Shown: positions 91 to 49,471 of the stretch, piece after piece
Numbering within the stretch: position 1 is the first letter of the stretch
Layout of the letters: each line of letters begins with the position of its first letter
Assembly: GCA_964016885.1 (NCBI GenBank)
Contig: OZ024762.1
Location: 4,836,001 to 4,900,000, forward strand
From: Eledone cirrhosa
Lineage: Eukaryota
Direction: 5' to 3'
DNA length: 64,000 nucleotides
The notes under the pieces: generated by a model
What the model was told of the DNA's origin: nothing
What the model saw: the letters and a program-made list of their open reading frames with translations, nothing else
The model's database searches: none
Translations under genes and position numbers: made by a program

Positions 91-3000
91 ATGGTTGATG
101 AGCTTACACGAGAAGATGTGGAAACATTTTTCGAAGAAAATCCTGAATTCCTTAAAAAATATGCAAGTAAGAATAAAATACCACCTTCAGCATTATCATT
201 TATCGAACACCTTCAATTAATTCTTAGTCGAAAAATAGCCTACCAAACGCAAAGGAGCAGTGTGATTTCCGAATTCGAGACTTACAGAGAAATACTCAAG
301 GAATTCGCTTCCGAACTCAATGAGGATAGACTGTGCTACGTAATTCTTCAAAACACATGTATCTTACTCAATTGTGACAGCGCCAATATTTTCGTGGCTC
401 GAGGTACTGATAATAACCGTTATCTTATTTCTAAATATATAGGTGTCACTTCTAATTCACAACGAACCGAAAGTCAGTATAAAGGACTCAATCCCATTCG
501 CATACCATTCGGTAAAGGAATTGTAGGCTATGTAGCTGAAACTAAGCGTACCTTAAAAGTCACTGATGTTGCCAATTCTGAATATTATAAAATGGTTGAT
601 GTAAAATCTTTCACACCTAATGCCAAAAGTATTCTTTCTATGCCAATTTTAAATAAAAGCGGGAAGGTGATGGGGGTAGCTCAGGTAATGAACTATGACG
701 AAAATTCCGATTTTTCTTCAGAAGATGAAGCTTTATTTGCGAACTTACTGTCCTTTTGTGGAATCGGTATAGAGACTGTTTATTTGTTCCAAGTTTGTAC
801 TGAGGAAGCCAGGCGCAACGCGTTATTACTTAAACTCACGGATTGCATTCTGAAAGTACAAAACAATCTACCGAAGCTTATATCTGAAATTCTACAACAA
901 GCTATGGAGATGTTAGACTGCCGTAATATATGTGTCTATTTGTGTGACAAAACCAAAGGGACAGTCGAGCCTAAGAAGAACTCTAAAGTGTTTCAATTAT
1001 TAAGAGATGAAAACAATATGGAGGAGGTAACAATAGACAGCAGATTTATAAAGCATCTTGAAAGCAATTTGAAAAGTGAGAATATATTCGATATTTTCGA
1101 TTTAAAAACATATGCTGATGTCTCGGTTTCAGATGAGGATAATATCGAAAGTTGGTTACTTTGTATGGCAATAAAGGATGCCAAAGGAAATACAATTGGT
1201 TCGATAATGTTTATTAGAGATTCCAAGGACATATTCAGTGAAAATGATATCAATATGATAAAAACGTTTGCATCGGTTTGTGGTTTGAGTATTTTCAACT
1301 GTCGCCTGTACGAGACTTCAGTTAATTTGTTGGAACAGGCGAAAATAACTAACGATAGACTTGCTTATCACACAATATGCCATATGAAAACTGTTGAAAG
1401 ATACCGTTCAATGAAGTTGAAGTCTGCAGAAGAATATCAAATCTACAGTTTTGACTTCGATGATTCTTTATATAAAGAGGAAGACGGTGTTTTATTGTGT
1501 GTACTGATGTTTTTAAAACTTGACGTTGTAAATATATTGAATATATCTCAAAATTTTTTATACAGGTTTATTCTAACGGTTAAAAAGAACTATCGTCCGG
1601 TTGCCTACCATAATTGGCGCCATGCTTTAAACGTTACACAAACAATGTTCTGCATGTTAACTACAGGCCACGTAGGTAATTACTTTACACAATTTCAACA
1701 GATCTGCTTGTTAATGGCTTGTATGTTTCATGATCTTGATCACCGGGGACAGAACAATTCGTTTCAAGTGAAGATAGCCTCTTCTATTGCTACACTGTAC
1801 GGTACATCTGTATTGGAACACCACCATCTTGACCGGGGTATGATGATTCTGAATAATACTGGAACTAATATCTTTCAAAATCTTCCCGCAGAACAATACC
1901 AGCTTGGTCTCAAATTAATCGAGAAAGCAATCTTAGCTACCGACCTCATGAATTATTTTTCACGAATAAACATTTTTAAACATGAAGTAGAAAGCGGTCA
2001 CAAAGAGTTCGATACTCCCGAAGGGGTTGATTTGCTACTCAACATGTTAATGACTGCAGCCGATCTATCAGGTATTACTAAGCCATGGCCGGTTCAAAAG
2101 AGAATAGCCGTTCAAGTCGCAGCTGAAATGTTCGAACAAGGAGACATAGAGAAAAATTTACAATGTGAGGTAATATCGTTGATGGATCGTGAGAAAAGAT
2201 ACGAAGTGCCTTCAAAGCAAGTTGATTTCATTGATTTTGTGTGTACACCGGTTTATAAAGTCCTAGCAGAATTGGAAGGGTGTTTGAGACCCTTATATGA
2301 CGGCTGCCTAAGAAACAGATCCCAGTGGTACCTTGTTGCAATTGGTAAAGAAATGTTTGATATCGATGAAGAATTAAATCTTGCTTCAAATAAACCTTTA
2401 ACCTTTGAAGAGCAAGAGAAAATTCGATGCCAAATTCGCAAAACTTCTATTCCAGTAGATCGCAAACCTACTCCAGGATATCGCAAAACTTCTGTTCCAG
2501 TAGATCGCAAACTTTCTGCTCCAGTATATCGCAAAACTGCTTCTGCAGTAGATCGCAAAACTGCTTCTGCAGTAGATCGCAAAACTTCTTTTGCAGTAGA
2601 TCGCAAAGCTTTTTCTGTAGATTTCAAAACTTCTCCAGTAGATCGCAAAACTTCTCAAGTAGATCGCAAAACTTCTGCAGTAGATCGCAAAACATCTCCA
2701 GAAGGTAAAGCTCAGACATTAGAAATGTTTAATATAATGGACCAAGATAACCTTCCTCCTTGGAGCCAACCTCAATCGTTATATCGAGCGCCCTCGTTCA
2801 TACCAAGACTAAAGAAGCTTACTAATATAAAACCATCAAATGATCCTATTCAGAAACCTAACATAATAAATAAACATGAAAACTACCCTTTTCTTTTTAA
2901 GCCTGAAACGGAAAGCCCCTTAAATATATATAGTCACAAAAAGAAGCTTTTTCCAGACGATCTGATAAAAATAACTCCGTGCAAGTTACTAAAAAATGAT

Positions 3001-3519
3001 TTGACTTCACCACGAACCAATAGAACAAAAAATTTTATAGTTTATTCCAATATCAATAAATCTGCTACGAACGAAAGTTCGATTATCGAAAATAACGGAA
3101 TGGAATTTAAAAAAGATGCAGAAAACTCTGACTCCTCGCATCGAAATTTCTATTCAACATTGGCTCCTTCCTCTACTTCTCTAGAATCATCGGTAGATAT
3201 CCATACACTAATGGAAGAACACAACACACTAATGAAAGAAAACGATGGCAACAACGCACGTCCTTATCATGGCGTCGAACAAGTCGTATTCGGCGATATC
3301 TGTAGTGTTTCTGAAAACCTAACTAGAAAAATAGGAGTAGATTTGATTGAAAGTAACACAATTTCTACAGTAAACGAATATACAGAGATTCATTCGGTGG
3401 AGTGTGATTTGACACCAAATATCAACAAATTTCGACGACGAAAATGTATGAAGAAGGGTTCCATTAATAAGAACAATCATTACGGCAGCTGGAAGACTCA
3501 TCTGTGTGTGATTTCATAA
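91..3519 (+). CDS. Intronless GAF-GAF cyclic nucleotide phosphodiesterase, PDE5/6-like, paralogue 1 (1142 aa, ends in CaaX CVIS)
   Basis: Single uninterrupted ORF. GAF-A features (IRIPFGKGIVGYVA, SILSMPI, GVAQVMN..F..EDE), a second degenerate GAF, and class I PDE catalytic motifs YHNWRHA, HDLDHRG, LEHHH, ILATD, AADLS..TKPW, EMFEQGD, QVDFID. C-terminus ...RRRKC...CVIS-stop. Confidence 0.93.
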   Translation: MVDELTREDVETFFEENPEFLKKYASKNKIPPSALSFIEHLQLILSRKIAYQTQRSSVISEFETYREILKEFASELNEDRLCYVILQNTCILLNCDSANIFVARGTDNNRYLISKYIGVTSNSQRTESQYKGLNPIRIPFGKGIVGYVAETKRTLKVTDVANSEYYKMVDVKSFTPNAKSILSMPILNKSGKVMGVAQVMNYDENSDFSSEDEALFANLLSFCGIGIETVYLFQVCTEEARRNALLLKLTDCILKVQNNLPKLISEILQQAMEMLDCRNICVYLCDKTKGTVEPKKNSKVFQLLRDENNMEEVTIDSRFIKHLESNLKSENIFDIFDLKTYADVSVSDEDNIESWLLCMAIKDAKGNTIGSIMFIRDSKDIFSENDINMIKTFASVCGLSIFNCRLYETSVNLLEQAKITNDRLAYHTICHMKTVERYRSMKLKSAEEYQIYSFDFDDSLYKEEDGVLLCVLMFLKLDVVNILNISQNFLYRFILTVKKNYRPVAYHNWRHALNVTQTMFCMLTTGHVGNYFTQFQQICLLMACMFHDLDHRGQNNSFQVKIASSIATLYGTSVLEHHHLDRGMMILNNTGTNIFQNLPAEQYQLGLKLIEKAILATDLMNYFSRINIFKHEVESGHKEFDTPEGVDLLLNMLMTAADLSGITKPWPVQKRIAVQVAAEMFEQGDIEKNLQCEVISLMDREKRYEVPSKQVDFIDFVCTPVYKVLAELEGCLRPLYDGCLRNRSQWYLVAIGKEMFDIDEELNLASNKPLTFEEQEKIRCQIRKTSIPVDRKPTPGYRKTSVPVDRKLSAPVYRKTASAVDRKTASAVDRKTSFAVDRKAFSVDFKTSPVDRKTSQVDRKTSAVDRKTSPEGKAQTLEMFNIMDQDNLPPWSQPQSLYRAPSFIPRLKKLTNIKPSNDPIQKPNIINKHENYPFLFKPETESPLNIYSHKKKLFPDDLIKITPCKLLKNDLTSPRTNRTKNFIVYSNINKSATNESSIIENNGMEFKKDAENSDSSHRNFYSTLAPSSTSLESSVDIHTLMEEHNTLMKENDGNNARPYHGVEQVVFGDICSVSENLTRKIGVDLIESNTISTVNEYTEIHSVECDLTPNINKFRRRKCMKKGSINKNNHYGSWKTHLCVIS
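2437..2700 (+). repeat. Coding 21/24-bp tandem repeat (about 12 units, GTAGATCGCAAAACTTCT-like) encoding VDRKTS(A/P)
   Basis: Repeated cgcaaaacttct/gtagat units, in frame inside PDE paralogue 1. Confidence 0.9.
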
Positions 3520-5080: not shown

Positions 5081-5420
5081 CATGGTGGCTGCCAACTCGT
5101 TTTCGAGTACGGCCACTACTTTATATCCATGTAGGAGAACCCCTACCGATGCGCTGAACGAGTGTGACTTTTTAGTCCTGCCAGCGTATTGAAAACTCTG
5201 GTACAAACACTACACTTGTGACAATTATTGACACATAGTGCTGGGCCCATGGTACCATGTGACGACAAGGGCAGAGAGATCTCCAGATATAAAGCAATGC
5301 CTGTGCCCTGAAGCTTTTATAGTGAGCAAAGGCACTGCACAAAGCCAGTCCCACTCTCTTAACCAAGATGATATTTACCAAAAAGAAGAACAAGTCAACA
5401 TCATTGGATACCATCAGGGT
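5081..5420. repeat. Interspersed repeat, near-identical to 16543-16880 (probable retroelement piece), ending where the 43-bp array starts
   Basis: CATGGTGGCTGCCAACTCG...TACCATCAGGGT occurs at both loci. A more diverged relative lies at 4820-5080. Confidence 0.8.
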
Positions 5421-13802: not shown

Positions 13803-14451
13803 GACTTGACCATCTTGACCACTTCCTGTTGCGCGCGCCCCACAACTTTCTACTTCCTCCTCGCCATTCCCACGGACGCTAACGCAGTGGTTTCCTGCTC
13901 GGATATCTCTGTGATTACAACTCGGAACAGTGCCATCCCTTTACACACACCCCGGAAAACCACATAAACACTTACACCATTTGCGCACACACGCAACCAT
14001 ACATTCCAACGTATCCACACCACACAAACACACGCACACACGTGCGCATCCTTACATACAATACACCCACTCCGCCTCCGGATTCCACATCCGACCCCTT
14101 TCCATCCACACGCATACACACACATACACACACATACACACAGACTTACCCTCCACTCCAACATACACAATGGTTTTCCAAAACCCACAGGCACGCAACT
14201 CCGCTCTCCCCCAGACTCTCACACTTACATCCACACACAAACACACACACGTACACCTACACACACGCACACACCTCACCTTCCATCCTCCCCGCTCAGA
14301 CCCCTTCTTTCCTCCCCTCTCTCTCCCTCCCCCCCAACCCCCATCCACCCCAGACACCACATCTTTTCACAACTTGTATTTTAACTTTTATTTTCCACTT
14401 CATGTTTTTTTTTCTTCTAACTCCCCCTCACTCCCTCTCGGAGTTCCCTCT

Positions 14452-17824: not shown

Positions 17825-19071
17825 CCGGAAGTGGATTAGCTTGAGAAGACCGCCAACGATACTTTGATATTAATGACCGGAAGTGGATTAGCTTCAGAAG
17901 ACCGCCAACGATACTTTGATACTAATGACCGGAAGTGGATTAGCTTCAGAAGACCGCCAACGATACTTTGATACTAATGACCGGAAGTGGATTAGCTTGA
18001 GAAGACCGCCAACGATACTTTGATACTAATGACCGGAAGTGGATTAGCTTGAGAAGACCGCCAACGATACTTTGATACTAATGACCGGAAGTGGATTAGC
18101 TTCAGAAGACCGCCAACGATACTTTGATACTAATGACCGGAAGTGGATTAGCTTCAGAAGACCGCCAACGATACTTTGATACTAATGACCGGAAGTGGAT
18201 TAGCTTGAGAAGACCGCCAACGATACTTTGATACTAATGACCGGAAGTGGATTAGCTTGAGAAGACCGCCAACGATACTTTGATACTAATGACCGGAAGT
18301 GGATTAGCTTCAGAAGACCGCCAACGATACTTTGATACTAATGACCGGAAGTGGATTAGCTTCAGAAGACCGCCAACGATACTTTGATACTAATGACCGG
18401 AAGTGGATTAGCTTGAGAAGACCGCCAACGATACTTTGATACTAATGACCGGAAGTGGATTAGCTTGAGAAGACCGCCAACGATACTTTGATACTAATGA
18501 CCGGAAGTGGATTAGCTTCAGAAGACCGCCAACGACACTTTGATACTAATGACCGGAAGTGGATCAGCTTGAGAAGACCGCCAACGATACTTTGATACTA
18601 ATGACCGGAAGTGGATTAGCTTGAGAAGACCGCCAACGATACTTTGATACTAATGACCGGAAGTGGATTAGCTTCAGAAGACCGCCAACGATACTTTGAT
18701 ACTAATGACCGGAAGTGGATTAGCTTCAGAAGACCGCCAACGATACTTTGATACTAATGACCGGAAGTGGATTAGCTTGAGAAGACCGCCAACGATACTT
18801 TGATACTAATGACCGGAAGTGGATTAGCTTCAGAAGACCGCCAACGATACTTTGATACTAATGACCGGAAGTGGATTAGCTTGAGAAGACCGCCAACGAT
18901 ACTTTGATACTAATGACCGGAAGTGGATTAGCTTGAGAAGACCGCCAACGATACTTTGATACTAATGACCGGAAGTGGATTAGCTTCAGAAGACCGCCAA
19001 CGATACTTTGATACTAATGACCGGAAGTGGATTAGCTTCAGAAGACCGCCAACGATACTTTGATACTAATG
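17825..19071. repeat. 52-bp minisatellite, about 24 copies (CCGGAAGTGGATTAGCTT[C/G]AGAAGACCGCCAACGATACTTTGATACTAATGA)
   Basis: CCGG at 17825 and 17877 gives period 52. Shorter arrays of the same unit at 23644-23872 and 28432-28712. Confidence 0.97.
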
Positions 19072-20019
19072 AAACCCCCTCAGACACATGGAATCAGAAC
19101 ACAAACAATGCAACCTCACCTGGACTCTTACCTAAAGTCTAAAGTCCGTTTGGAGCCCGGGGTCTTATCCCGTTGCCTGAAGCGACTGAGAGTACAAACT
19201 TCCTCCTGGACAGGACGCCAGTCCATCGCAGGGTTAAACCCCCCCCCCCCCCCAGCTATTGTTGGTCCTCATTTTCAGCTGAGTATACAGGAGCAACGTG
19301 AGATGAAATGTTTTGCTTAAGAACATTCCCCCCCCCCCCACGGAATCACCCCTTAAGAACACAACACACCACCCCTCCCCCAGGAATCACCCCCCCCCCC
19401 CACTCACACACACACACGATCCAGGGGACATTAGAGGCCCAGGAAGACCAAAAAGGACTTGGATGGAGGATATCCGTCGAGATGATGTTAGGCTTTGCCT
19501 GGCCTAAGTGAGACCAGCGGAGCGGGACGCTAAGGAGCGCTGTCAGACAGAACCCACCCCTACTTAGGGATTAATTGTGTCCTGCATACTCAAAAACTGG
19601 ATGATGATGACTTATTATCATAAGTCCCAAACCCTTACCACTAGGCCAGGCGTCTTCACAGTCTTATTCTCCCAGTAGAACAAGTGACGTATGTGAAAAC
19701 TGGGCTCTTACCCCGCAGTGAAAAGTATCTGTTAGCCTCCTAGAATATGTGACCCTTAAAAGCAGTATAAAACTAAAATACTAACCTTGTGTATGCTACA
19801 CCCGTATAACATAGATGTTGTGTGTCTCTCAAAAGTGAGATTACAAGGCTTCTTCTGATATCAATTCTTTAAGATTCCTTAATCCTCAATCTTCAGTCGA
19901 CCATTGTATTATAGTGGTGTTGACAATGATTCTGGACAACATGGTGTGACATTTTCCCTCGTTGTGCAGTCCAGAACATCTCTGTTATCCTTGGATCCCC
20001 AAACCTCAACCCCACCCCC

Positions 20020-21133: not shown

Positions 21134-23656
21134 ATGGAGGACGAACTTTCAGAAGTAAACGTGATACGATTCTTTATGGAAAATCCACTATTCATTAAAT
21201 CATGGCTTTATGAGAGCGGGCGAGGTGAATTAGCTGAAGATCTTTTCGAGCCCTTTCAGGGTCCAGCAGTTGCAGCAACATCCTTTATAGATTATTTAGA
21301 AGAAATCGTGTTTCTTAAGAGACCTGCAGGAAAAGGTCGGAACAGTAGAATTTATGAAAATAAGGTGTACAAAGAAGTAATGAAAAATGTTAACACTGTG
21401 ATTGATGTTCAAAATGTATGCCATAAGATTCTTCAGAATCTATGCATCTTACTTCACTGTGAGAAAGCAAGTCTTTTTTTGACTCGAGGAACGGAAGATA
21501 ACCAATATCTTCTCTCGTCCTTATTCGATGTCACGGCAACATCTGTTTTAGAGGAAACGGTACACACCGAAGAAAATGCCATACGAATTCCATTCGATAA
21601 AGGTATTTCAGGATTTGTAGCTACAAACAGATGTATAGTAAATGTTAAAGATGTGTATCGAGATTCTCGCTTTTTATGTGATGTGGACCAAAAGACTGGG
21701 TTTCGCACCAAAAGTATTCTATGTATGCCAGTTCTGGGAAGAGATACCCATTTGATAGGTGTAGCTCAGGTAATGAACAAAGAAAATGGTTTGGGTTTTG
21801 AAAAGGGAGATGAAATTATATTCGAGAGCTTTTTGTCATTTTGTGGTATCTGTGTGGATAACTCTTTTTCCTTTGAAAAAGCGTATGAGGAACATAAACG
21901 CCAGAAAGTACTAGAAAAGCTCAGTAAATGCATATTAAAATATCAAAACGCACCCCAGAATCTTATACCCGAAATTATGAAGCTTGCCATGGAAATGTTA
22001 CACTGTGAGAGCATTTATGTCTATCTAGCTGATACGAAGAAGGATGCATATCCTCCAAATAAATCTTCGAAAGTCTTCCAGTTGTTGAAAGGGGAATCGA
22101 ATATCACAGAAGAGATTATAGGCCCGAAAGTTAGAAAAGCAATTGAAGAGAATATGAACAGTGGACACACTTTAGATTTGATTAATATGGACGACATGGG
22201 CGATGTTAATGCGATACGTCTCGATAGTACAGTTGAAAGTTGGTTAATTTGTTTAGCCATTAAAGATTCTTACCAGAATTTCGTTGGTAGCCTTGTGTTT
22301 CTTAGAGAATCAAATGATATGTTCAACCGAAATGATATCAATATGATGGAGCTGTTTGCAACATTCTGCGGGTTAGCTTTCTACAACTTCCGTCTTTATA
22401 AAACCTCGGTACAGACGCTAAATCAGCTAGAATATACAAATAAACTTCTTAACTATATAACTTCTTCTGAACCAAAGAATGTACTTAATCATTTAAGATT
22501 GAAGATAAAGTCTTCAAATGACTATCACATTCATAAATTCGATTTCAGTGATTTTGTATTTTCAGAAGAAGAAACCGTTTTGTTGTGTGTCCGTATATTT
22601 TTAGAAGCCAACATATTGGCCGTACTCAGCATACCTATGGACTTATTATATAGTTGGTTGCTAACTGTTAAAAAGAACTATCGACCTGTCACCTATCATA
22701 ATTGGCGTCATGCTGTTAACGTGACTCAAACTATGTTTTGTATGTTTACCACGGGTGGATTACAAAAATATTTCACAGAATTTGAAAGGATTTGTCTATT
22801 GATAGCTTGTTTGTGTCATGATCTCGATCACAGGGGAACAAATAGTGCGTACCTCGTGAAGACGTCATCTCCTCTTGCTACAATGTACAGTACGTCTGTC
22901 TTGGAACACCATCACATAAATCGAAGTATCGCAATACTACAATGCAATAATACAAATATTTTTCAAAATACACCCGCTGAAGTATATCAGGAAGGTCTCA
23001 AATTATTTGAGAAAGCAATCCTTTCTACAGACCTTAAACTTTATTTTGAGAAGCGAAGTCTTTTCAAACAAAAATTTGAAATCGATGACCCTAATTTGAA
23101 ATCTCCTGAAAGTAAGGAATTATTACTCGCGATGATGATGACAGCAGCCGATCTTTCAGCTATTACTAAGCCATGGCCTGTTCAAAAAAGAACAGCCCTT
23201 ACTATTGCAACAGAATTATTTGAACAAGGAGACTTGGAGAGCGCGTATAACCTCCCATTGGTGCCGATGCTGGATCGTGGAAAAAGACATCAAATACCTC
23301 AAATGCAAGTTAGTTTTATAGATTTAGTGTGTACAATGGTTTATAAACTCTTTTCACAAGTGAGTAATCGTCTGACGCCTATGTATAATGGAATGCTTAA
23401 AAACAGAACTCATTGGTCCAATATTGTAATTGGTAAGGAAAAATTTGATATTGACAAAGAATTCGGATACCTTTCCCACGTCAAGCCAGGAAAAAAAAAG
23501 ACAGCAAAGAAATATCGACGATCTCTTCTAATTCAAACTATTTTTACATTTCCTTCGCGTAAACAAATAAGCCAGACAGATATTTCCATCCCTCCACATT
23601 TAATTCGGAAGAAACTTAACCTTAATCATGGCAACTCAGTCAGAACGATACTTTGA
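21134..23656 (+). CDS. Intronless GAF-GAF PDE5/6-like paralogue 2 (840 aa), C-terminally truncated, stop codon supplied by the VNTR
   Basis: Intact GAF-A (D.RF..DVDQKTGFRTKSILCMP, NK..F...DE) and complete catalytic domain (YHNWRHA, HDLDHRG, QVSFID). Lacks the last ~200 aa and the CaaX of paralogue 4. Confidence 0.85.
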   Translation: MEDELSEVNVIRFFMENPLFIKSWLYESGRGELAEDLFEPFQGPAVAATSFIDYLEEIVFLKRPAGKGRNSRIYENKVYKEVMKNVNTVIDVQNVCHKILQNLCILLHCEKASLFLTRGTEDNQYLLSSLFDVTATSVLEETVHTEENAIRIPFDKGISGFVATNRCIVNVKDVYRDSRFLCDVDQKTGFRTKSILCMPVLGRDTHLIGVAQVMNKENGLGFEKGDEIIFESFLSFCGICVDNSFSFEKAYEEHKRQKVLEKLSKCILKYQNAPQNLIPEIMKLAMEMLHCESIYVYLADTKKDAYPPNKSSKVFQLLKGESNITEEIIGPKVRKAIEENMNSGHTLDLINMDDMGDVNAIRLDSTVESWLICLAIKDSYQNFVGSLVFLRESNDMFNRNDINMMELFATFCGLAFYNFRLYKTSVQTLNQLEYTNKLLNYITSSEPKNVLNHLRLKIKSSNDYHIHKFDFSDFVFSEEETVLLCVRIFLEANILAVLSIPMDLLYSWLLTVKKNYRPVTYHNWRHAVNVTQTMFCMFTTGGLQKYFTEFERICLLIACLCHDLDHRGTNSAYLVKTSSPLATMYSTSVLEHHHINRSIAILQCNNTNIFQNTPAEVYQEGLKLFEKAILSTDLKLYFEKRSLFKQKFEIDDPNLKSPESKELLLAMMMTAADLSAITKPWPVQKRTALTIATELFEQGDLESAYNLPLVPMLDRGKRHQIPQMQVSFIDLVCTMVYKLFSQVSNRLTPMYNGMLKNRTHWSNIVIGKEKFDIDKEFGYLSHVKPGKKKTAKKYRRSLLIQTIFTFPSRKQISQTDISIPPHLIRKKLNLNHGNSVRTIL

Positions 23657-23872
23657 TACTAATGACCGGAAGTGGATTAGCTTGAGAAGACCGCCAACGA
23701 TACTTTGATACTAATGACCGGAAGTGGATTAGCTTCAGAAGACAGCCAACGATACTTTGATACTAATGACCGGAAGTGGATTAGCTTGAGAAGACCGCCA
23801 ACGATACTTTGATACTAATGACCGGAAGTGGATTAGCTTCAGAAGACCGCCAACGATACTTTGATACTAATG
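23644..23872. repeat. 52-bp minisatellite, 4 full units
   Basis: Four CCGGAAGT cores counted. Confidence 0.95.
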
Positions 23873-28431: not shown

Positions 28432-28712
28432 AACGATACTTTGATACTAATGACCGGAAGTGGATTAGCTTGAGAAGACCGCCAACGATACTTTGATACT
28501 AATGACCGGAAGTGGATTAGCTTGAGAAGACCGCCAACGATACTTTGATACTAATGACCGGAAGTGGATTAGCTTGAGAAGACCGCCAACGATACTTTGA
28601 TACTAATGACCGGAAGTGGATTAGCTTCAGAAAACCGCCAACGATACTTTGATACTAATGACCGGAAGTGGATTAGCTTCAGAAGACCGCCAACGATACT
28701 TTGATACTAATG
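28432..28712. repeat. 52-bp minisatellite, 5 full units
   Basis: Five CCGGAAGT cores counted. Confidence 0.95.
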
Positions 28713-30788
28713 AAACCCCCTCACACACATGGAATCAGAACACAAACAATGCAACCTCACCTGGACTCTTACTTAAAGTCTAAAGTCCGTTTGGAGCCCG
28801 GGGTCTTATCCCGTTGCCTGAAGCGACTGAGAGTACAAACTTCCTCCTGGACAGGACGCCAGTCCATCGCAGGGTTAAACCCCCCCAGCTATTGTTGGTC
28901 CTCATTTTCAGCTGAGTATACAGGAGCAATGTGAGATGAAATGTTTTGCTTAAGAACACCCCTACCCCCACCCCCCCACCCCCCACCCACCCCCACCCAC
29001 CCCCCCGGAATCACCCCTTAAGAACACAACACAACACCCCTCCCTCAGGAATCACACCCCCACACACACACACGATCAAGGGGACAGTAGAGGCCCAGGA
29101 AGACCAAAAAGGGCTTGGATGGAGGATATCCGTCGAGATGATGTTAGGCTTGGCCTGGCCTAAGTGAGAGCAGCGGAGCGGGACGCTAAGGAGCGCTGTC
29201 AGACAGAACCCACCCCTACTTAGGGATTAATTGTGTACTGCATACTCAAAAACTGGATGATGATGACTTATTATCATAAGTCCCAAACCCTTACCACTAG
29301 GCCAGGCGTCTCCACAGTCTTATTCTCCCAGTAGAACAAGTGACGTATGTGAAAACTGGGCTCTTACCCCGCAGTGAAAAGTATCTGTTAGCCTCCTAGA
29401 ATATGTGACCCTTAAAAGCAGTATAAAACTAAAATACTAACCTTGTGTACGCTACACCCGTATAACATAGATGTTGTGTGTCTCTCAAAAGTGAGATTAC
29501 AAGGCTTCTTCTGATATCAATTCTTTAAGATTCCTTAATCCTCAATCTTCAGTCGACCATTGTATTATAGTGGTGTTGACAATGATTCTGGACAACATGG
29601 TGTGACATTTTCCCTCGGTGTGCAGTCCAGAACATCTCTGTTATCCTTGGATCCCCAAACCTCAACCCCACCCCCATTTATCTCGGATCCATCCGAAGGC
29701 CTCGTTGAACTTGTATAACATTTCTGTCATAGCAGTTTATACACTAACCCTGGATGATGGTGATGATTGTGTGAAGTATCAGTTTTCTACGGCCACCTCA
29801 ACCCAGCTGCTGACAGAACATCTTCCAATGATCTCCATATTGTTACAGGAAAAGACGACGTAAGCAAAATAGACGGAGCCGCGTTGAGTTTGTTGCCAAT
29901 AAACGCGACGAATGTACACAAGCTAGAAGTTTGTGAACACTTTTGCCGTCTTCACCTTTCTTCCCTTCGCGTCGTTAAAATAGTTGCTTGTTAATACCGA
30001 ACTAATTCGATCAACTTTTCTTCCCATTGCCTTGGAAAGCTTAAGGGAAAAGCAAATAATGAAAATTGCGATAAGTTGCCAGAAACTCTGTTGAGCATTG
30101 TACTAAATGTTGTATAAGGTCCCGTAGCTCCTGATAGAGTCGTAGGGCGCCGTATTTGCATACGGCGTTTCTTGGGTATTTTAAGCTTGGCAGAACCCCT
30201 CCCTCCCTAGGCCTGAGTACAGCAGATTTCTTTCAGAGAAAGGAAGAATCGACTCCAGTACTAGAGGCAAAGCTGACCTTGGTAGGATTTGAACTCAGAG
30301 AGCAAAGAGCCGGAACGAACTCCACAAAGCATTCTATCCGACGTTCTAACGACTCTGCCAATTCGCCGCCACTAAGTACTAGCAGCAATATATAGTCCAA
30401 TTTTTCTGTGTTCTCAGTTTAGTTCTGAGTTTAGTTCCACCCAGCATCAACAGAGCATTCTATCTCGCTGATATCAATAAAATAAATGCAAATTATTTAT
30501 CTGGGGTGAATTCAATCAAGAAAGTTTTACCTAGCCCAGTTAAATCAACGATAAAATATGCAGGTGTGTCATCTAAACCTTAATCGTTTGAGAACTTGGA
30601 GTATTTATTTTGTCATAAATTGTCATACGTCACAACAGATTCATTTAACGTGATTTGAAAGGCAAGCCACGAAAACATGTCTGCTTCTAGTGTCAAGTAA
30701 CGGAAACTGAAGAAGTTTTCTTCTTTTTTTTTTCAAGAATCGTAGGATTCAGTGAAAATTGATTTGATAGTAAACTAAAAACAAAATC

Positions 30789-33700
30789 ATGGAGGACGAA
30801 CTTACAGAAGTAAACGTGATACGATTCTTTATGGAAAATCCACTATTCATTAAATCATGGCTTTATGAGAGCGGGCGAGGTGAATTAGCTGAAGATTTTT
30901 TCGAGCCCTTTCAGGATTCAGGAGTTGCAGCAACATCCTTTATAGATTATTTAGAAGAAATCGTGTTTTATAAGAAACCTGCAGTAAAAGGTCGGGACAG
31001 TAGAATTTGTGAAAATAAAGTGTACAAAGAAGTAATGAAAAATGTTAACAGTGTAATTGATGTTCAACATGTATGCCATAAGATTCTTCAGAATGTATGC
31101 ATCTTACTTCACTGTGAGAAAGCAAGTCTTTTTTTGACTCGAGGAACGGAAGATAACCAATATCTTCTCTCGTCCTTATTCGATGTCACGGCAACATCTG
31201 TTTTAGAGGAAACGGTACACACCGAAGAAAATGCCATACGAATTCCATTCGATAAAGGTATTTCAGGATTTGTAGCTACAAACAAATGTATAGTAAATGT
31301 TAAAGATGTGTATCGAGATCCTCGCTTTTTATGTGATGTGGACCAAAAGACTGGGTTTCGCACCAAAAGTATTCTATGTATGCCAGTTCTGGGAAGAGAT
31401 ACCCATTTGATAGGTGTAGCTCAGGTAATGAACAAAGAAAATGGTTTGGGTTTTGAAAAGGGAGATGAAATTATATTCGAGACCTTCTTGTCATTTTGTG
31501 GTATCTGTGTGGATAACTCTTTTTTCTTTGAAAAAGCGTATGAGGAACATAAACGCCAGAAAGTACTAGAAAAGCTCAGTAAATGCATATTAAAATATCA
31601 AAACGCACCCCAGAATCTTATACCCGAAATTATGAAGCTTGCCATGGAAATGTTACACTGTGAGAGCATTTATGTCTATCTAGCTGATACGAAGAAGGAT
31701 GCATATCCTCCAAATGAATCTTCGAATGTCTTCCAGTTGTTGAAAGGGGAATCGAATATCACAGAAGAGATTATAGGCCCGAAAGTTAGAAAAGCAATTG
31801 AAGTGAATATGAACAGTGGACACACTTTAGATTTGATTAATATGGACGACATGGGCGATGTTAATGCGATACGTCTCGATAGTACAGTTGAAAGTTGGTT
31901 AATTTGTTTAGCCATTAAAGATTCTTCCCAGAAATTCGTTGGTAGCCTTGTGTTTCTTAGAGAATCAAATGATATGTTCAACCGAAATGATATCAATATG
32001 ATGGAGCTGTTTGCAACATTCTGCGGGTTAGCTTTCTACAACTTCCGTCTTTATAAAACCTCGGTACAGACGCTAAATCAGCTAGAATATACAAATAAAG
32101 TTCTTAACTATATAACTTCTTCTGAACCAAAGAATGTACTTAATCATTTAAGATTGAAGATAAAGTCTTCAGATGACTATCACCTTCATAAATTCGATTT
32201 CAGTGATTTTGTATTTTCAGAAGAAGAAACCGTTTTGTTGTGTGTCCGTATATTTTTAGAAGCCAACATATTGGCCGTACTCAGCATACCTATCGACTTA
32301 TTATATACTTGGTTGCTAACTGTTAAAAAGAACTACCGACCTGTCACCTATCATAATTGGCGTCATGCTGTTAACGTGACTCAAAGTATGTTTTGTATGT
32401 TTACCACGGGTGGATTACAAAAATATTTCACAGAATTTGAAAGGATTTGTCTATTGATAGCTTGTTTGTGTCATGATCTCGATCACAGGGGAACAAATAG
32501 TGCGTACCTCGTGAAGACGTCATCTCCTCTTGCTACAATGTACAGTACGTCTGTCTTGGAACACCATCACATAAATCGAAGTATCGCAATACTACAAAGC
32601 AATAATACAAATATTTTTCAAAATACACCCACTGAAGTATATCAGGAAGGTCTCAAATTATTTGAGAAAGCAATCCTTTCTACAGACCTTAAAATTTATT
32701 TTGAGAAGCGAAATCTTTTCAAACAAAAATTTGAAATCGATGACCCTAATTTGAAATCTCCTGAAAGTAAGGAATTATTACTCGCGATGATGATGACAGC
32801 AGCCGATCTTTCAGCTATTACTAAGCCATGGCCTGTTCAAAAAAGAACAGCCCTTACTATTGCAACAGAATTATTTGAACAAGGAGACTTGGAGAGCGCG
32901 TATAACCTCCCATTGGTGCCGATGATGGATCGTGGAAAAAGACATCAAATACCTCAAATGCAAGTTAGTTTTATAGATTTAGTGTGTACAATGGTTTATA
33001 AACTCTTTTCACAACTGAGTAATCATCTGACGCCTATGTATAATGGAATGCTTAAAAACAGAACTCATTGGTCCAATATTGTAATTGGTAAGGAAAAATT
33101 TGATATTGACAAAGAATTCGGATACCTTTCCCACGTCAAGCCAGGAAAAAAAAAATCAGGATTGAAACATCGACAATCTGTTCTAATTCAAACTATTTTT
33201 ACATTTCCTTCGCGTAAACAAATAACCCAGACAGATATTTCCATCCCACCACATTTAATTCGGAAGAAACTTACCCATAATCGTGGCAACTCATTCATAA
33301 CGGATTCAGATTGTCAGACTGAAGATCTGGAACGGTCTACCGTGGCGGTACAGACAGATATTTTGAGTGACTCACGGCGTTTGTCGATTATAATGCCACA
33401 CGAGCAACCGATGATTTCTCCGGAACAAACCCAAGACGATTCTATGAGTATGGAAACCAAAACATTAATGAAAACATCCAGTAGTGGTTATTCAAAGTTA
33501 ATTCAACATTCAAGCGCCAACAGAAGACGTTCAAGTATGATTGAAGATATTGCAATCGAAAAACGCACTGAATTACAACGAAAAAGAAACGAAAATCAAA
33601 GTCCACCTTTCGCGCAGGAAGAGATTCCGCAGTTAATAAAAAAATCATCGATTACTGTTCTACCACCAAACTCCCTTGATGAACTAAGACGAACATCCTC

Positions 33701-33914
33701 ACAAAGAACACGACTTTCTATTAACTTCCAAGACTCAAAAACTCAGCTGAAACAAACTTTAAGCAATAATTTACTTCAAACTTCCCTAGGAGGCTTGCTT
33801 ACAACTAACATGGAGCAGTCCATCCGAAAACGCAAATGTTTACAGTCTGATAGGGAAAAAAAGAAACCCGGGCGCCGTAAGTCTTGGAGGAGTGTCATGT
33901 GTGTCATAGCATAA
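30789..33914 (+). CDS. Intronless GAF-GAF PDE5/6-like paralogue 4 (1041 aa), full-length member of the triplication, ends in CaaX CVIA
   Basis: Same domain motifs. Long disordered tail ending RKRKC...KKKPGRRKSW..MCVIA-stop. AATAAA about 65 nt downstream. Confidence 0.93.
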   Translation: MEDELTEVNVIRFFMENPLFIKSWLYESGRGELAEDFFEPFQDSGVAATSFIDYLEEIVFYKKPAVKGRDSRICENKVYKEVMKNVNSVIDVQHVCHKILQNVCILLHCEKASLFLTRGTEDNQYLLSSLFDVTATSVLEETVHTEENAIRIPFDKGISGFVATNKCIVNVKDVYRDPRFLCDVDQKTGFRTKSILCMPVLGRDTHLIGVAQVMNKENGLGFEKGDEIIFETFLSFCGICVDNSFFFEKAYEEHKRQKVLEKLSKCILKYQNAPQNLIPEIMKLAMEMLHCESIYVYLADTKKDAYPPNESSNVFQLLKGESNITEEIIGPKVRKAIEVNMNSGHTLDLINMDDMGDVNAIRLDSTVESWLICLAIKDSSQKFVGSLVFLRESNDMFNRNDINMMELFATFCGLAFYNFRLYKTSVQTLNQLEYTNKVLNYITSSEPKNVLNHLRLKIKSSDDYHLHKFDFSDFVFSEEETVLLCVRIFLEANILAVLSIPIDLLYTWLLTVKKNYRPVTYHNWRHAVNVTQSMFCMFTTGGLQKYFTEFERICLLIACLCHDLDHRGTNSAYLVKTSSPLATMYSTSVLEHHHINRSIAILQSNNTNIFQNTPTEVYQEGLKLFEKAILSTDLKIYFEKRNLFKQKFEIDDPNLKSPESKELLLAMMMTAADLSAITKPWPVQKRTALTIATELFEQGDLESAYNLPLVPMMDRGKRHQIPQMQVSFIDLVCTMVYKLFSQLSNHLTPMYNGMLKNRTHWSNIVIGKEKFDIDKEFGYLSHVKPGKKKSGLKHRQSVLIQTIFTFPSRKQITQTDISIPPHLIRKKLTHNRGNSFITDSDCQTEDLERSTVAVQTDILSDSRRLSIIMPHEQPMISPEQTQDDSMSMETKTLMKTSSSGYSKLIQHSSANRRRSSMIEDIAIEKRTELQRKRNENQSPPFAQEEIPQLIKKSSITVLPPNSLDELRRTSSQRTRLSINFQDSKTQLKQTLSNNLLQTSLGGLLTTNMEQSIRKRKCLQSDREKKKPGRRKSWRSVMCVIA

Positions 33915-34856: not shown

Positions 34857-34857
<1 letters not shown>
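34810..34857 (-). mobile_element. Extreme 3' tip (~47 bp) of the Tx1-like LINE
   Basis: TTTCTTTATTAGCCACAGGGGCACAAAAGAAGGGGACAAATACAA, identical to the ends of the two longer copies, with (GATA)n on both sides. Confidence 0.8.

Positions 34858-34905
<48 letters not shown>

Positions 34906-34907
<2 letters not shown>

Positions 34908-35448: not shown

Positions 35449-35450
<2 letters not shown>
34906..35450 (-). mobile_element. 5'-truncated ~545-bp copy of the Tx1-like LINE 3' end
   Basis: Matches 35511-36055 (offset 605) with no differences that I could spot. Bounded by (GATA)n. Confidence 0.9.
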
Positions 35451-37699
<2,249 letters not shown>

Positions 37700-45824: not shown

Positions 45825-45870
<46 letters not shown>

Positions 45871-46087: not shown

Positions 46088-49000
46088 ATGATTAAAACAG
46101 AGCCTACAGCTTTGACAGCAGTCGAGGTGGAAACTTTCCTTGGAGATAATAAGGAGTTTGTTATTGAGTGGCTCTCAGCACATGGTATGCAAGAAATAGC
46201 AGATGACACATCGAAAAGATTCGTTGCTGAAAAAATCACTTTGACTTTTTTAAAGAAACTGATGTCGCGATTGGGAGAAGATGACTTATCTACAACTCCC
46301 ATATTTTTAGATTTGTTTCGTGAGATATTGAAAGATGTCGCAATTAGCGTCAATGAAAATGCATTAACTCATAAGATTCTTCAAGCTGCATGCAAGCTGG
46401 TTCAGTGTCGTAGAACAAGCTTGTTCCTAGTTCAGGGAACTAGTGAAAATCGATTCCTTGCTTCGAAATTCAGCGATGTTAAAATTACATCGAAAATGAA
46501 GGAAACACTCAACACAGAAGGGAACACAATTATGGTACCGTTTGGCGAATGGGTCGTAGGATATGTCGCTGTAAACAAGTGTTTTGTAAATATTAAAGAG
46601 ACAACCGATGAATCACGTGTTATTAAGGATATTGATAAATATGAGAAGAGCAAAGCAAAAACTATTCTTGCTGCACCAGTGTGCGATAAAAGTGGAGTTG
46701 TAATAGGCGTGGTTAAAGCTATGGATAAATTAGAGGATAAAGATTTTACTCATCAAGATGAAAACGTGTTTGAATTCATTTCGGCATTTTGTGCTGTAAC
46801 TATTACCAGTGCCCGCATCTTTGAAAGCTCTCGGGATGAAGACAAACGGCATAAAATAATGCTAAAACTCACTCAGATCATTATGAAAGATTATAGCAAC
46901 GTCCAAAAATGTATAACGGAAATTCTTAATCAGGCCTTAGTATTATTGGAATGTGATAATGTCAGCATCTATGTAACTGATGATACAAAGGATTTGCAGC
47001 ATTTCAACGAATCCACTGAAGTGTTTCAGTTGTTAAAAGGCGAAAAGGAAGTTAAATGTACTCCCATCGAACCCCGATTCATCCCGATAATCAAACTCAA
47101 CAGGCAACGTGTAAGTAAGATGAATATAATTGATTTGCTTTTACCGGAGAACATCAAAGTTACAATCGACGGTAACGTGAAAAATTGGTTGTCTTGTGTA
47201 TCGATTATTGATTCCTGTAAAACACTAATAGGCCATATGATGTTTCTTAGAGAATCGATTAATACTTTTAATGATTTTCAAATTACTATGATGAAGACAT
47301 TTGCCTTGTACTTCGGATTAGTAATTTACAGGAATAATCTGTTTAACTCTTATCAGTATGTATCCCGGACTTCTTTTACTGATGAGTTACTCGCCATTCA
47401 CATTATTTGCCCAGAAAGCGATGTCAATAAAATGCAACGGTTAAAGATTCAGAGCCCAGAGCACTATAACATTTACTACTTCGATTTCGCATCTAATTTA
47501 TTGCCAGAAAATGAAACTTTTACGGTGGCTGTTCTTATATTCTTAGAAATGAAGGCTCTAGAAATATTGAAAATATCTATGTCCACTTTGTATCGATTTT
47601 TATTAACCATCAAAAAGAACTATCGACCTGTCACCTATCATAATTGGCGTCATGCTGTTAACGTGACTCAAAGTATGTTTTGTATGTTTACCACGGGTGG
47701 ATTACAAAAATATTTCACAGAATTTGAAAGGATTTGTCTATTGATGGCTTGTTTGTGTCATGATCTCGATCACAGGGGAACAAATAGTGCATACCTCGTG
47801 AAGACGTCATCTCCTCTTGCTACAATGTACAGTACGTCTGTCTTGGAACACCATCACTTAAATCGAAGTATCGCAATACTAAAAAATGATAGTACAAATA
47901 TTTTTCAAAATACACCCGCTGAAGTACATCAGGAAGGTCTCAAATTATTTGAGAAAGCAATCCTTGCTACAGACCTTACACTTTATTTTGAGAAGCGAAA
48001 TCTTTTCAAACAGAAATTTGAAATCGATGACCCTAATTTGAAATCTCCTGAAAGTAAGGAATTATTACTCGTGATGATGATGACAGCAGCCGATCTTTCA
48101 GCTATTACTAAGCCATGGCATATTCAAAAATTAACCGCTATGTTAATCTCTTCTGAATTTTTTGAACAAGGAGACTTGGAAAAATGTATGGATGTTGACG
48201 TCATATCCTTAATGGATCGTAAAAAAATACACGAAATACCTAAATCTCAAGTTGGTTTTATCGATTTCGTGTGTACGATGGCTTATAAACTCCTTTCACA
48301 GGTGAGTGAATATATGATGCCTATGTATCATGGACTGCTTAACAACAGAACTCATTGGTCCGATATTGCAAATGGTAAGGAAGAATTTGACATTGAAAAA
48401 GAGTTTCAAAATGCTTTGAAGATGCATGATGAAATAAACGATTTGACAACGCCGGATCAGGAGACATATTCCAATGCAACCACCCAGACACTTCTACAAG
48501 ATTTCAAGGGCAAGGGAGAACAGCAAACAATTCAAACTGAACTTTCTTATCCTAAAGAAGCATTGGTATCCATACATGATCTAACGGTGCCTGTTTTACA
48601 TGAATCTAACATCGATACGATCCACAAAGAAACAAGGTCTTGTCAAACAAATAAAAAATGTTTCAAGGAAGCCCCCTCTCAAACCACTCCCCCCGCTATA
48701 CCCGCAGGCGAAGACTTCACACAGCTACCGACACAGTTTAGATCAGTACGCCCCGTAACAAAACCTGGGGTGTACTCGGGATCAGACCATAAAATGTCAT
48801 CAGCTTTCAATCCAGTGAATAGTTTCCCAAGGAGGACAAGCTGTTTCGATCAGCTTGTGGATCAAAGACGCAAAGAATTACAGGAGAAAAAACAAAACAT
48901 ATGTCTAGAAAACAAAGAGAAGCTGTTTCCTCTGGGAAAACCCTCACATACTGTTTTACCGCCGGATCCAATGAACCTGATGAATAAAAATGAATCCAAA

Positions 49001-49471
49001 AGTTCACAGGATTCTACATCATTTGCTGACGAAATGTTGAAACTACCGTCCCCGAGGTCTAAAATGTCAATGGATTCTTCATTTTCTATGATAAAAAGCA
49101 AACTTCCTGAACCAATAAAGGAAGAAGTTAGTGACAGTGACCAAGAATTGGTTGCCGTGTCTAATTCAAAAGTTTTTGAAAATGTTAATTCTGAGCATTA
49201 TCTCACGTCACATCTTTCTTTGAACTGGGCACAATCTTGGTCGAATATATTTGAAACAAATGACTTAACTGAAATACCTGCTGGTCAAAGGGAATATGCG
49301 ACACCTAGAAACGATAGCCAAACTGAATCCAACTCAATTGACTTCGGCGCATCCAAATTTCTGAACAGTCTCAACCTCCGAAAACGTAAATGTGTTAGGA
49401 TTAATCCGAAAAAACAAAAGAAAAGGAGTCAGAAATTGGGTATTCTTGAACATGTATGTGGGATTTCTTAG
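46088..49471 (+). CDS. Intronless GAF-GAF PDE5/6-like paralogue 5 (1127 aa from first ATG), ends in CaaX CGIS
   Basis: Single ORF; first ATG at 46088 (the track starts at a TTG at 46076). Divergent GAFs, complete catalytic motifs (YHNWRHA, HDLDHRG, EFFEQGD, QVGFID). Tail RKRKC..KKQKKR..VCGIS-stop. Confidence 0.92.
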   Translation: MIKTEPTALTAVEVETFLGDNKEFVIEWLSAHGMQEIADDTSKRFVAEKITLTFLKKLMSRLGEDDLSTTPIFLDLFREILKDVAISVNENALTHKILQAACKLVQCRRTSLFLVQGTSENRFLASKFSDVKITSKMKETLNTEGNTIMVPFGEWVVGYVAVNKCFVNIKETTDESRVIKDIDKYEKSKAKTILAAPVCDKSGVVIGVVKAMDKLEDKDFTHQDENVFEFISAFCAVTITSARIFESSRDEDKRHKIMLKLTQIIMKDYSNVQKCITEILNQALVLLECDNVSIYVTDDTKDLQHFNESTEVFQLLKGEKEVKCTPIEPRFIPIIKLNRQRVSKMNIIDLLLPENIKVTIDGNVKNWLSCVSIIDSCKTLIGHMMFLRESINTFNDFQITMMKTFALYFGLVIYRNNLFNSYQYVSRTSFTDELLAIHIICPESDVNKMQRLKIQSPEHYNIYYFDFASNLLPENETFTVAVLIFLEMKALEILKISMSTLYRFLLTIKKNYRPVTYHNWRHAVNVTQSMFCMFTTGGLQKYFTEFERICLLMACLCHDLDHRGTNSAYLVKTSSPLATMYSTSVLEHHHLNRSIAILKNDSTNIFQNTPAEVHQEGLKLFEKAILATDLTLYFEKRNLFKQKFEIDDPNLKSPESKELLLVMMMTAADLSAITKPWHIQKLTAMLISSEFFEQGDLEKCMDVDVISLMDRKKIHEIPKSQVGFIDFVCTMAYKLLSQVSEYMMPMYHGLLNNRTHWSDIANGKEEFDIEKEFQNALKMHDEINDLTTPDQETYSNATTQTLLQDFKGKGEQQTIQTELSYPKEALVSIHDLTVPVLHESNIDTIHKETRSCQTNKKCFKEAPSQTTPPAIPAGEDFTQLPTQFRSVRPVTKPGVYSGSDHKMSSAFNPVNSFPRRTSCFDQLVDQRRKELQEKKQNICLENKEKLFPLGKPSHTVLPPDPMNLMNKNESKSSQDSTSFADEMLKLPSPRSKMSMDSSFSMIKSKLPEPIKEEVSDSDQELVAVSNSKVFENVNSEHYLTSHLSLNWAQSWSNIFETNDLTEIPAGQREYATPRNDSQTESNSIDFGASKFLNSLNLRKRKCVRINPKKQKKRSQKLGILEHVCGIS

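What the first reader, a model, noticed from the sequence alone, without database searches (positions are those of the whole stretch)
91..49471. Tandem cluster of five intronless, prenylation-competent PDE5/6-like phosphodiesterases
Seen: five single-exon ORFs of 2.4-3.4 kb on one strand, each GAF-GAF-PDEase, falling into three divergent lineages (paralogue 1; 2/3/4; 5). Established: animal PDE5/6/11 genes are normally multi-exon (about 20 exons) and low-copy, and the neighbouring transporter here is intron-containing. Inference: a retrocopy founded a lineage-specific PDE array that then expanded by tandem duplication and kept long open ORFs, which points to selection. This could be an undescribed cGMP-signalling module, for example in sperm, sensory epithelium or photoreceptive tissue. 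The cluster may continue upstream of the window.
Basis: partly seen in the sequence, partly recalled or inferred. Interest (0 to 1): 0.85.

Follow-up and report, generated by a model that had tools for sequence, protein, structure and literature searches.

The report
Octopod intronless PDE6-lineage phosphodiesterase array
This octopus-type genome carries eight intron-free, fast-evolving copies of a cGMP-type phosphodiesterase gene in one cluster and no intron-containing version was found, so a reverse-transcribed copy likely replaced the original gene and then multiplied, likely for cGMP signalling in sperm.

Summary
The five ORFs are real and single-exon in the coding region. Three more lie upstream, giving 8 copies in about 92 kb. 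Only 3 of the 5 window copies (6 of 8 overall) end in CaaX; W2 and W3 are young, truncated 4.79-kb duplicates of W4. Trees place the array in the PDE6 lineage (vertebrate cone PDE6, fly PDE6, sea-urchin sperm 'PDE5') as the octopod orthologue of the mollusc gene. The genome's two closest multi-exon PDEs belong to the PDE5 and PDE11A lineages (AU p 7e-5 and 0.014). No multi-exon parent was found, so this looks like retrogene replacement rather than a retrocopy beside its parent. Relatives sit on one contig each in three Octopus species, and one occurs in Argonauta. Deep paralogue dN/dS is 0.2-0.5. W2/W3/W4 show 67 nonsynonymous versus 7 synonymous changes, and W5's catalytic core was gene-converted. 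Expression is unshown here; O. sinensis data suggest testis. The genes are auto-annotated, but ten literature searches found no description. New variant of a known kind.

The parts
91..3519 (+). W1: 1142-aa GAF-GAF-PDE, ends CVIS; GAF-A NK motif altered (NY); tail holds a 24-bp repeat (2436-2698) encoding eight R-K-x-S/T motifs. Three more copies (U1, U2, U3) lie 10-42 kb upstream, outside the window
   Evidence: orthologue O. bimaculoides XP_014782381; upstream copies
17825..19072 (+). 52-bp minisatellite (24 copies) at the left border of the first 4.79-kb duplication unit
21134..23656 (+). W2: 840-aa truncated duplicate of W4; frame runs into the 52-bp repeat and stops; no CaaX
23644..23873 (+). 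52-bp minisatellite (4.4 copies), junction between duplication units
25922..28363 (+). W3: 813-aa truncated duplicate of W4; TAG at 28361-28363 where W2 and W4 have CAG; no CaaX
   Evidence: T allele and the junction into the repeat are present in Logan contigs of one sample
28432..28713 (+). 52-bp minisatellite (5.4 copies), junction between duplication units
30789..33914 (+). W4: 1041-aa full-length GAF-GAF-PDE with RKRKC motif and CVIA end; the only full-length member of W2/W3/W4
   Evidence: model aligns to PDE6C over residues 64-767 (688 aligned, Z 44.6, rmsd 5.5)
46088..49471 (+). W5: 1127-aa GAF-GAF-PDE with RKRKC motif and CGIS end; GAF-A NK motif altered (DK)
   Evidence: lineage shared with O. 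vulgaris and Argonauta hians
47612..48118 (+). Gene-conversion tract in the W5 catalytic core, shared with W2-W4 (W4 codons 513-681, window 32325-32831)
   Evidence: 91-100% nucleotide identity in 30-codon windows inside, 43-64% upstream, 56-61% just downstream; dS 0.05 inside versus 1.1-1.2 in the GAF domains; left edge seen in contigs

Best explanation
This is an eight-copy tandem array of intron-free PDE6-lineage phosphodiesterase genes that likely arose when a reverse-transcribed copy replaced the octopod ancestor's multi-exon gene, and whose fast-evolving members likely hydrolyse cGMP at the membrane of male germ cells or sperm. Shown: eight single-ORF copies; placement in the PDE6 lineage beside the mollusc orthologue; no multi-exon PDE6-lineage gene detected in the assembly; birth-and-death dynamics (4.79-kb duplications bounded by a 52-bp minisatellite, truncations, an inversion, gene conversion); excess amino-acid change in the youngest copies. 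Inferred from residues and family knowledge: the enzymes are active and cGMP-preferring (metal ligands kept in 8 of 8, the Gln817 equivalent in 7 of 8); six are anchored by CaaX prenylation, four of them with a nearby polybasic-Cys motif; GAF-B is structural only, while GAF-A still senses cGMP in some copies. Inferred role: they would reset cGMP pulses from receptor guanylyl cyclases in the flagellum, as the sea-urchin relative does. U3, the slow member, would be the best candidate to keep the ancestral broader function. Component odds: array and lineage identity about 0.97, parent lost about 0.85, RNA-mediated origin about 0.85, mainly male-germline role about 0.6.
For: Eight full-length PDEase_I matches in open frames of 818-1671 aa, all on C23; the other 30 of 38 matches are exon-sized. 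Mollusc catalytic and GAF-A stretches, with all candidates scored (38 of 38; 25 of 25), found only the array plus exons of other PDE loci. Careful tree: array clade 100/100, array plus mollusc orthologues 96/99, C4 gene in a separate group 98/96. AU rejects array+C8 (p 0.014) and array+C4 (p 7e-5). With vertebrate references, C4 groups with catfish PDE5 and Octopus 'PDE11', C8 with horseshoe-crab 'PDE11A-like', and the array with a cone-PDE6-type protein, fly PDE6 and urchin sperm PDE5 (99*). No hit with a cephalopod name is among the 120 best of 2775 hits to the abalone orthologue. C4 and C8 give chains of 12-16 exon matches over about 200 kb and 70 kb. Abalone and Babylonia isoforms differ by internal 48-aa and 16-aa blocks. 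O. vulgaris CAI9740184-195 (11 of those 12 accessions seen), O. sinensis XP_029650736-745 (8 seen) and four O. bimaculoides RefSeq proteins each share one contig length. W2/W3/W4: 67 N versus 7 S changes, omega 2.6-3.5, p 0.005-0.0003; N rate 3.6% versus 1.2-1.7% in the noncoding flank, p 1.6e-4. PMC11202624 Table 4: an O. sinensis 'cGMP-specific PDE-like' gene has FPKM 13.93 in testis and 0 in ovary. Its Table S7, captioned DEGs in testis, lists 14 of 28 cyclic-nucleotide PDE genes against 2.55 expected, p 4.1e-5. PMC7024835: sea-urchin PDE5 clears cGMP in the sperm flagellum, about 48,600 copies.
Against: No expression data for this species, and no enzyme assay. The O. sinensis gene EVM0008366 is tied to the array only by an identical annotation string. 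Table S7 lists no gene IDs, its parent GO term (14 of 29) has p 0.58, and the study compared only immature testis with ovary, not soma. An O. maya testis paper has 0 mentions of PDE in its text or 6 supplements. U1/U2 have dN/dS 0.94-1.27, not distinguishable from 1. W2 and W3 are truncated, and many of the W2-W4 changes are conservative. Relocation from the ancestral locus was not testable, so in-place intron loss is not excluded. The parent could lie in an assembly gap. The array has long branches (about 1.4-1.9 versus 0.2-0.5 in other molluscs), and in a simpler-model quick tree it left the mollusc group, though it stayed in the PDE6 lineage.
Confidence: 0.55

Rival explanations
1. Same origin, but the array serves somatic cGMP signalling (NO or receptor-cyclase pathways in nerve, skin, suckers or photoreceptive tissue), with testis transcription being incidental.
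For: The array is the only PDE6-lineage representative detected, so any ancestral somatic role must rest on it. U3 is conserved at 81-86%. The lineage includes vertebrate photoreceptor PDE6. Promiscuous testis transcription of retrogenes is described in PMC5803294.
Against: Excess amino-acid change and rapid turnover are more typical of reproductive genes (general knowledge). O. sinensis PDE genes are enriched among testis DEGs. No PDE6 inhibitory subunit was found in invertebrates (PMC4906994), and protostome Gq-opsins mainly serve vision (PMC9776813).
Confidence: 0.22
2. Only U3 and perhaps one or two others are functional; the rest are relaxed or decaying copies kept open by recent duplication and gene conversion.
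For: U1/U2 dN/dS about 1. W2 and W3 are truncated. U2 has lost the Gln817 equivalent. Fragmentary or CaaX-less copies occur in Octopus too.
Against: Five sub-lineages kept open frames of over 1000 aa across species, with dS about 1 or more and dN/dS 0.2-0.5. Metal ligands are intact in 8 of 8. CaaX and the polybasic-Cys motif persist at the end of otherwise poorly conserved tails. dN significantly above both dS and flank divergence is not expected from decay.
Confidence: 0.13
3. The ancestral gene lost all its introns in place (cDNA recombining with its own locus) and was then tandem-duplicated, or a spliced parent survives in an unassembled region.
For: No target-site duplication or diagnostic poly(A) could be tied to a founder. 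The A18 just after the W4 stop and A9 after U3 are not diagnostic. Synteny with other molluscs was not testable.
Against: No cephalopod-named conventional orthologue appears in the 120 best hits or, which argues against a hidden parent. In-place loss is still RNA-mediated and changes only the word 'relocated'.
Confidence: 0.1

Closest known systems
Invertebrate PDE6-lineage enzymes: Drosophila PDE6, Strongylocentrotus 'sperm phosphodiesterase 5', mollusc 'cGMP-specific PDE-like'
   Same: Same clade, GAF-GAF-PDEase layout, CaaX end (17 of 19 non-cephalopod lineage members checked end in C-x-x-x).
   Different: Those appear at one or two lineages per species in the hit lists, with RefSeq splice isoforms, mostly at about 54-73% identity to abalone. 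The array is 37-42% identical to abalone, single-ORF, 8-copy, lacks the GAF-B motif and adds a polybasic-Cys motif absent from those 19.
Vertebrate photoreceptor PDE6 (PDE6A/B/C)
   Same: Same lineage; best full-length structural matches; similar N-terminal helix motif and CaaX.
   Different: No inhibitory gamma subunit was found in invertebrates (PMC4906994); transducin coupling is not implied.
Vertebrate PDE5A
   Same: Best sequence match in the PDB (E 3e-138); catalytic model rmsd 1.5-1.6; pocket residues at the 767/775/817/853 positions mostly kept.
   Different: PDE5A groups with the multi-exon C4 gene, not with the array, and the catfish PDE5A has no CaaX.
Retrogene replacement ('orphan retrogenes'), e.g. 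amphioxus SYCP1 (PMC5803294)
   Same: Single coding exon of about 3 kb, parent not found, likely germline link.
   Different: SYCP1 stayed single-copy at a new position beside the ParaHox cluster. Here the replacement was followed by tandem radiation into five lineages with conversion and positive selection, and relocation is untested.
Auto-annotated Octopus proteins (CAI9740184-195, XP_029650736-745, XP_014782379-381) and Argonauta GAB1609066
   Different: They carry only generic names; copy number and recent duplications differ by species; exon counts of those records could not be read here.

Membership tests
Class I cyclic-nucleotide phosphodiesterase | PDEase_I domain with metal-binding His/His-Asp/Asp ligands | tested here: met
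   Pfam above cut-off in 8 of 8; HNWxH, HDLDH and D(764) positions kept in 8 of 8; residue roles are recalled, PDE5 numbering mapped
GAF-tandem PDEs (PDE2/5/6/10/11) | GAF-A domain | tested here: met
   Pfam GAF in 8 of 8; NK..F..DE motif kept in 6 of 8, altered in W1 and W5
GAF-tandem PDEs (PDE2/5/6/10/11) | GAF-B domain | tested here: met
   By predicted fold in the 2 of 8 copies modelled; W4 aligns to PDE6C over 64-767. Not detected by Pfam; nucleotide motif lost in 8 of 8
PDE6 lineage (invertebrate 'PDE5/6') | Phylogenetic placement with fly PDE6, urchin sperm PDE5, mollusc orthologues and vertebrate PDE6 | tested here: met
   Searches (96/99 with molluscs; 99* lineage, quick tree), AU
PDE6 lineage (invertebrate 'PDE5/6') | C-terminal CaaX motif | tested here: met
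   Met in 6 of 8; absent in truncated W2 and W3. Prenylation itself not tested
PDE6 lineage (invertebrate 'PDE5/6') | cGMP-selective hydrolysis | not testable with these tools
   Gln817 equivalent in 7 of 8 (His in U2), Gln775 and Trp853 equivalents in 8 of 8; needs an assay
Vertebrate photoreceptor PDE6 | Inhibition by a gamma subunit and activation by transducin | not tested
   Not searched here; PMC4906994 found no gamma homologue in invertebrates. Not filed under this family
Vertebrate PDE5A orthologue | Groups with PDE5A in a tree | tested here: not met
   Catfish PDE5A groups with the C4 gene (99* five-row group), not the array
Retrogene replacement | Single coding exon where relatives are multi-exon | tested here: met
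   8 of 8 single-ORF; paralogues C4 and C8 multi-exon; orthologue introns inferred from internal isoform indels in 2 of 5 pairs compared
Retrogene replacement | Multi-exon parent absent | tested here: met
   For this assembly: (a stricter search); assembly completeness unknown
Retrogene replacement | Inserted away from the ancestral locus; poly(A) or target-site duplication | tested here: inconclusive
   A-runs after W4 and U3 stops are not diagnostic; no synteny data for other molluscs
Retrogene replacement | Transcribed | not testable with these tools
   Only indirect O. sinensis data

The most novel reading that the evidence does not exclude
Octopods, perhaps all coleoids, discarded their spliced PDE6-lineage gene and run sperm cGMP signalling on a retro-derived kit. 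In this reading a positively selected PDE array has split into anchored, soluble-truncated, GAF-deaf, substrate-switched and catalytically dead members, working with the intron-free receptor guanylyl cyclases found in the same genome, and is shaped by sperm competition.
Probability: 0.25. Interest if true: 0.72.

Novelty: new variant of a known kind. Interest (0 to 1): 0.52.

Why it matters
In the animals sampled here this PDE lineage appears low-copy and slow-evolving, and it includes the enzyme of vertebrate vision and of sea-urchin sperm chemotaxis. Loss of the spliced gene followed by an 8- to 12-copy radiation under positive selection would be a cephalopod gene-family expansion that these searches did not find described, and a rare replacement-then-radiation case. 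It names concrete candidates for the cGMP-off step in octopus sperm and supplies natural variants at the GAF and inhibitor pockets of PDE5/6-type enzymes.

Tried and rejected
Expression in this species: no RNA holder listed; three runs of unrecorded kind, one sample, were found. They were laid on 25800-28480 and contain the W3 junction, the T allele and the W5 tract edge, which argues against an assembly artefact but is not independent biology. A loose end at 25850 matched 0 of 64 loci, and a DNA search of the W3 5' end found only 5 places, all in the array; the loose end is unexplained. C4 and C8 as parents: rejected. The 2813-aa ORF at 5368-13809 is a 43-bp satellite, not a gene. Gene conversion as the cause of the W2-W4 excess: rejected, since outside the tract it is 59 N versus 6 S, p 0.0014; one N count at codon 792 arose on an artificial stop background and is unreliable. 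Literature: ten searches listed no paper describing the array; one search showed 25 of 305, 25 of 768 and 20 of 23, most subscription papers are not held, and large genome-paper supplements were not searched. Four look-ups of earlier scan findings returned nothing. No squid, cuttlefish or nautilus member was found by name; two unnamed long-ORF members (P0008, P0232) branch near the base and their organisms are unknown. Trees left out W2 and W3 (and U2 in the two smaller trees) and used 50, 31 and 37 selected rows out of about 390 proteins fetched; the outgroup was not monophyletic.
Full report
Observation. The five ORFs exist at the stated coordinates and each carries Pfam GAF and PDEase_I. 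A PDEase_I search of the own genome gave 38 matches. Eight are full-domain matches in open frames of 818-1671 aa, all on contig C23 within about 92 kb; the other 30 are exon-sized. The three extra copies lie upstream of the window: U3 (C23:4794014-4797142, +, 1042 aa, ends CLII), U2 (4809528-4814498, -, 1656 aa with an in-frame 33-aa repeat, ends CSIS) and U1 (4822565-4825690, +, 1041 aa, ends CTIS). Those two are 4.79-kb tandem duplicates of the W4 upstream region and 5' 2.5 kb, about 97% identical and bordered by a 52-bp minisatellite. W2 runs into the repeat and W3 has a CAG-to-TAG stop. Contigs from one sample contain the junction and the stop allele.

Domain anatomy. Pfam sees only GAF-A. 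AlphaFold models of U3 (pLDDT 65) and W4 1-790 (pLDDT 83) both show a second alpha/beta domain. W4 aligns to cone PDE6C over residues 64-767 (Z 44.6) and to the PDE5 catalytic domain at rmsd 1.5-1.6; U3's top Foldseek hits are PDE6. Metal ligands are intact in 8 of 8 copies. The Gln817 equivalent is kept in 7 of 8 (His in U2; Glu in one O. vulgaris copy), and the Gln775 and Trp853 equivalents in 8 of 8 (the roles of these residues are recalled). The GAF-B NK..F..DE motif is lost in all 8 and in the 6 other clade members aligned, while the GAF-A motif is altered in W1 and W5. The tails align poorly, yet 4 of the 6 CaaX-bearing copies, and most CaaX-bearing Octopus relatives, keep an RKRKC-like motif shortly before the CaaX, which none of 19 non-cephalopod lineage members checked has. 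I infer a second membrane signal.

Which PDE. The closest named relatives are Octopus proteins at 39-59% identity, so the genome is octopod-type. The careful mixture-model tree gives one array clade (100/100) joined to the mollusc orthologues (96/99) inside a group with fly PDE6 and sea-urchin sperm PDE5. A simpler-model quick tree kept it in that lineage but not with molluscs, as can happen with long branches. Adding vertebrate references resolved three old lineages: PDE11A-like (own C8 gene), PDE5 (catfish PDE5A, insect and Octopus 'PDE11', own C4 gene) and PDE6-like (a cone-PDE6-type protein, fly, urchin, molluscs and the array). This matches the PDE5A / PDE6-like / PDE11A scheme in the cnidarian table of PMC9776813 (passages). 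'PDE5/6-like' is therefore best read as PDE6 lineage.

The parent is missing. Whole-protein and short-stretch searches found only the array and exons of other PDE loci (all candidates scored in the last two). The two closest multi-exon genes are rejected as sisters of the array (AU p 0.014 and 7e-5). No cephalopod-named conventional orthologue is among the best 120 of 2775 hits to the abalone protein, where other molluscs score 1027 bits or more, nor among the best 120 of 454 hits to the array profile. Introns in the ancestral gene are inferred from the multi-exon paralogues and from internal isoform indels in 2 of 5 mollusc pairs. This fits retrogene replacement as defined in PMC5803294 (passages). 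Relocation versus in-place loss is untested, and an assembly gap cannot be fully excluded.

Age and dynamics. O. vulgaris has 11 of the 12 accessions CAI9740184-195 in this clade, O. sinensis eight in XP_029650736-745 and O. bimaculoides four RefSeq proteins, each set on one contig. All five sub-lineages have Octopus counterparts and W5 has one in Argonauta. Two unnamed long-ORF proteins branch near the base; one (P0232) has lost catalytic residues. Deep paralogue pairs have dN/dS 0.22-0.49 (W5 versus W2-W4 is 0.7 because of conversion), and U1/U2 about 1. W2/W3/W4 differ by 67 nonsynonymous and 7 synonymous changes (omega 2.6-3.5, p 0.005-0.0003). The nonsynonymous rate, 3.6%, exceeds the noncoding flank at 1.2-1.7% (p 1.6e-4), which points to positive selection. 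W5 shares a 507-bp catalytic tract with W2-W4 at dS 0.05 against 1.1-1.2 in the GAF domains. U3 is 81-86% identical to its Octopus orthologues in the folded domains, the others 43-69%; the C4 control is 90%.

Function. There is no RNA evidence for this species. In O. sinensis a gene with the same annotation string as the array proteins has FPKM 13.93 in testis and 0 in ovary, and 14 of 28 cyclic-nucleotide PDE genes are in the testis DEG set against 2.55 expected (PMC11202624; passages and supplement rows). The genes are not mapped to the array and soma was not sampled. In sea urchin, PDE5 clears cGMP made by a receptor guanylyl cyclase in the flagellum (PMC7024835; passages); its orthology to the urchin protein in my tree is inferred from the name. 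The own genome also holds two single-ORF receptor guanylyl cyclases of about 1680 aa and a single-ORF PKA RII, but no link to the array was tested. An O. maya testis paper does not mention PDEs (PMC6341066; text and 6 supplements searched by word). PMC4906994 (passages) found no PDE6 gamma subunit in invertebrates, which weakens a vertebrate-type visual role. I put the full sperm model at 0.55, a somatic role at 0.22, mostly decaying copies at 0.13, and in-place loss or hidden parent at 0.10.

Novelty. The proteins are auto-annotated in Octopus databases, but ten searches (listings only unless cited above) found no description of the array, the intron loss or the missing parent. Genome-paper supplements that I did not search may bear on this. 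The parts are known kinds: class I GAF-PDE, retrogene replacement and tandem birth-and-death. The combination in this enzyme lineage appears undescribed. Verdict: new variant of a known kind, interest 0.52.

Noticed in passing
L070:2488-7503 (+) and L072:3365-8428 (-); a broken third copy in L071 near 5113-5886 (-): Two single-ORF receptor guanylyl cyclases of 1672 and 1688 aa (ANF-receptor, EGF, kinase-like and cyclase domains) on C13 and C2, plus a frameshifted neighbour; possible intron-free cGMP sources.
   Followed up: partly
L075:4793-5908 (-): Single-ORF PKA type II regulatory subunit (372 aa), a possible retrocopy.
   Followed up: partly
L053:6828-7499 (+) versus G000:C4:22.32-22.53 Mb (-): The first large exon of the PDE5-lineage ('PDE11') gene lies on the opposite strand and on the wrong side of the rest of the gene; local inversion or misassembly.
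   Followed up: no
window about 21060-21082, and equivalents before W3 and W4: Polypyrimidine tract and AG about 51 nt before the ATG; candidate 5'-UTR splice acceptor.
   Followed up: no
window 56642-57100 (+), and L042 and L043 downstream of the window: MFS sugar-transporter first exon ending at a GT donor, with two similar-looking ORF starts downstream; possibly a second tandem cluster.
   Followed up: no
window 35751-37493 (-) and 34857-36056: LINE reverse-transcriptase ORF between W4 and W5; a perfect 595-bp direct duplication overlaps its 3' end.
   Followed up: no
window 5423-13802: 43-bp satellite, 195 copies, giving a spurious 2813-aa ORF.
   Followed up: yes
tails of W4, W5, U3, P0008, P0232: A shared RRx(S/T)-type motif followed by a predicted helix in otherwise divergent tails, and eight R-K-x-S/T motifs in the W1 repeat; they resemble PKA/PKG sites (consensus recalled).
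   Followed up: no
window 33921-33938: A-run of 18 directly after the W4 stop (A9 after U3); not diagnostic of retroposition.
   Followed up: partly
window 25850 and 28114: Contigs from runs X1-X3 leave the reference at these places with unrelated sequence; source not found.
   Followed up: partly
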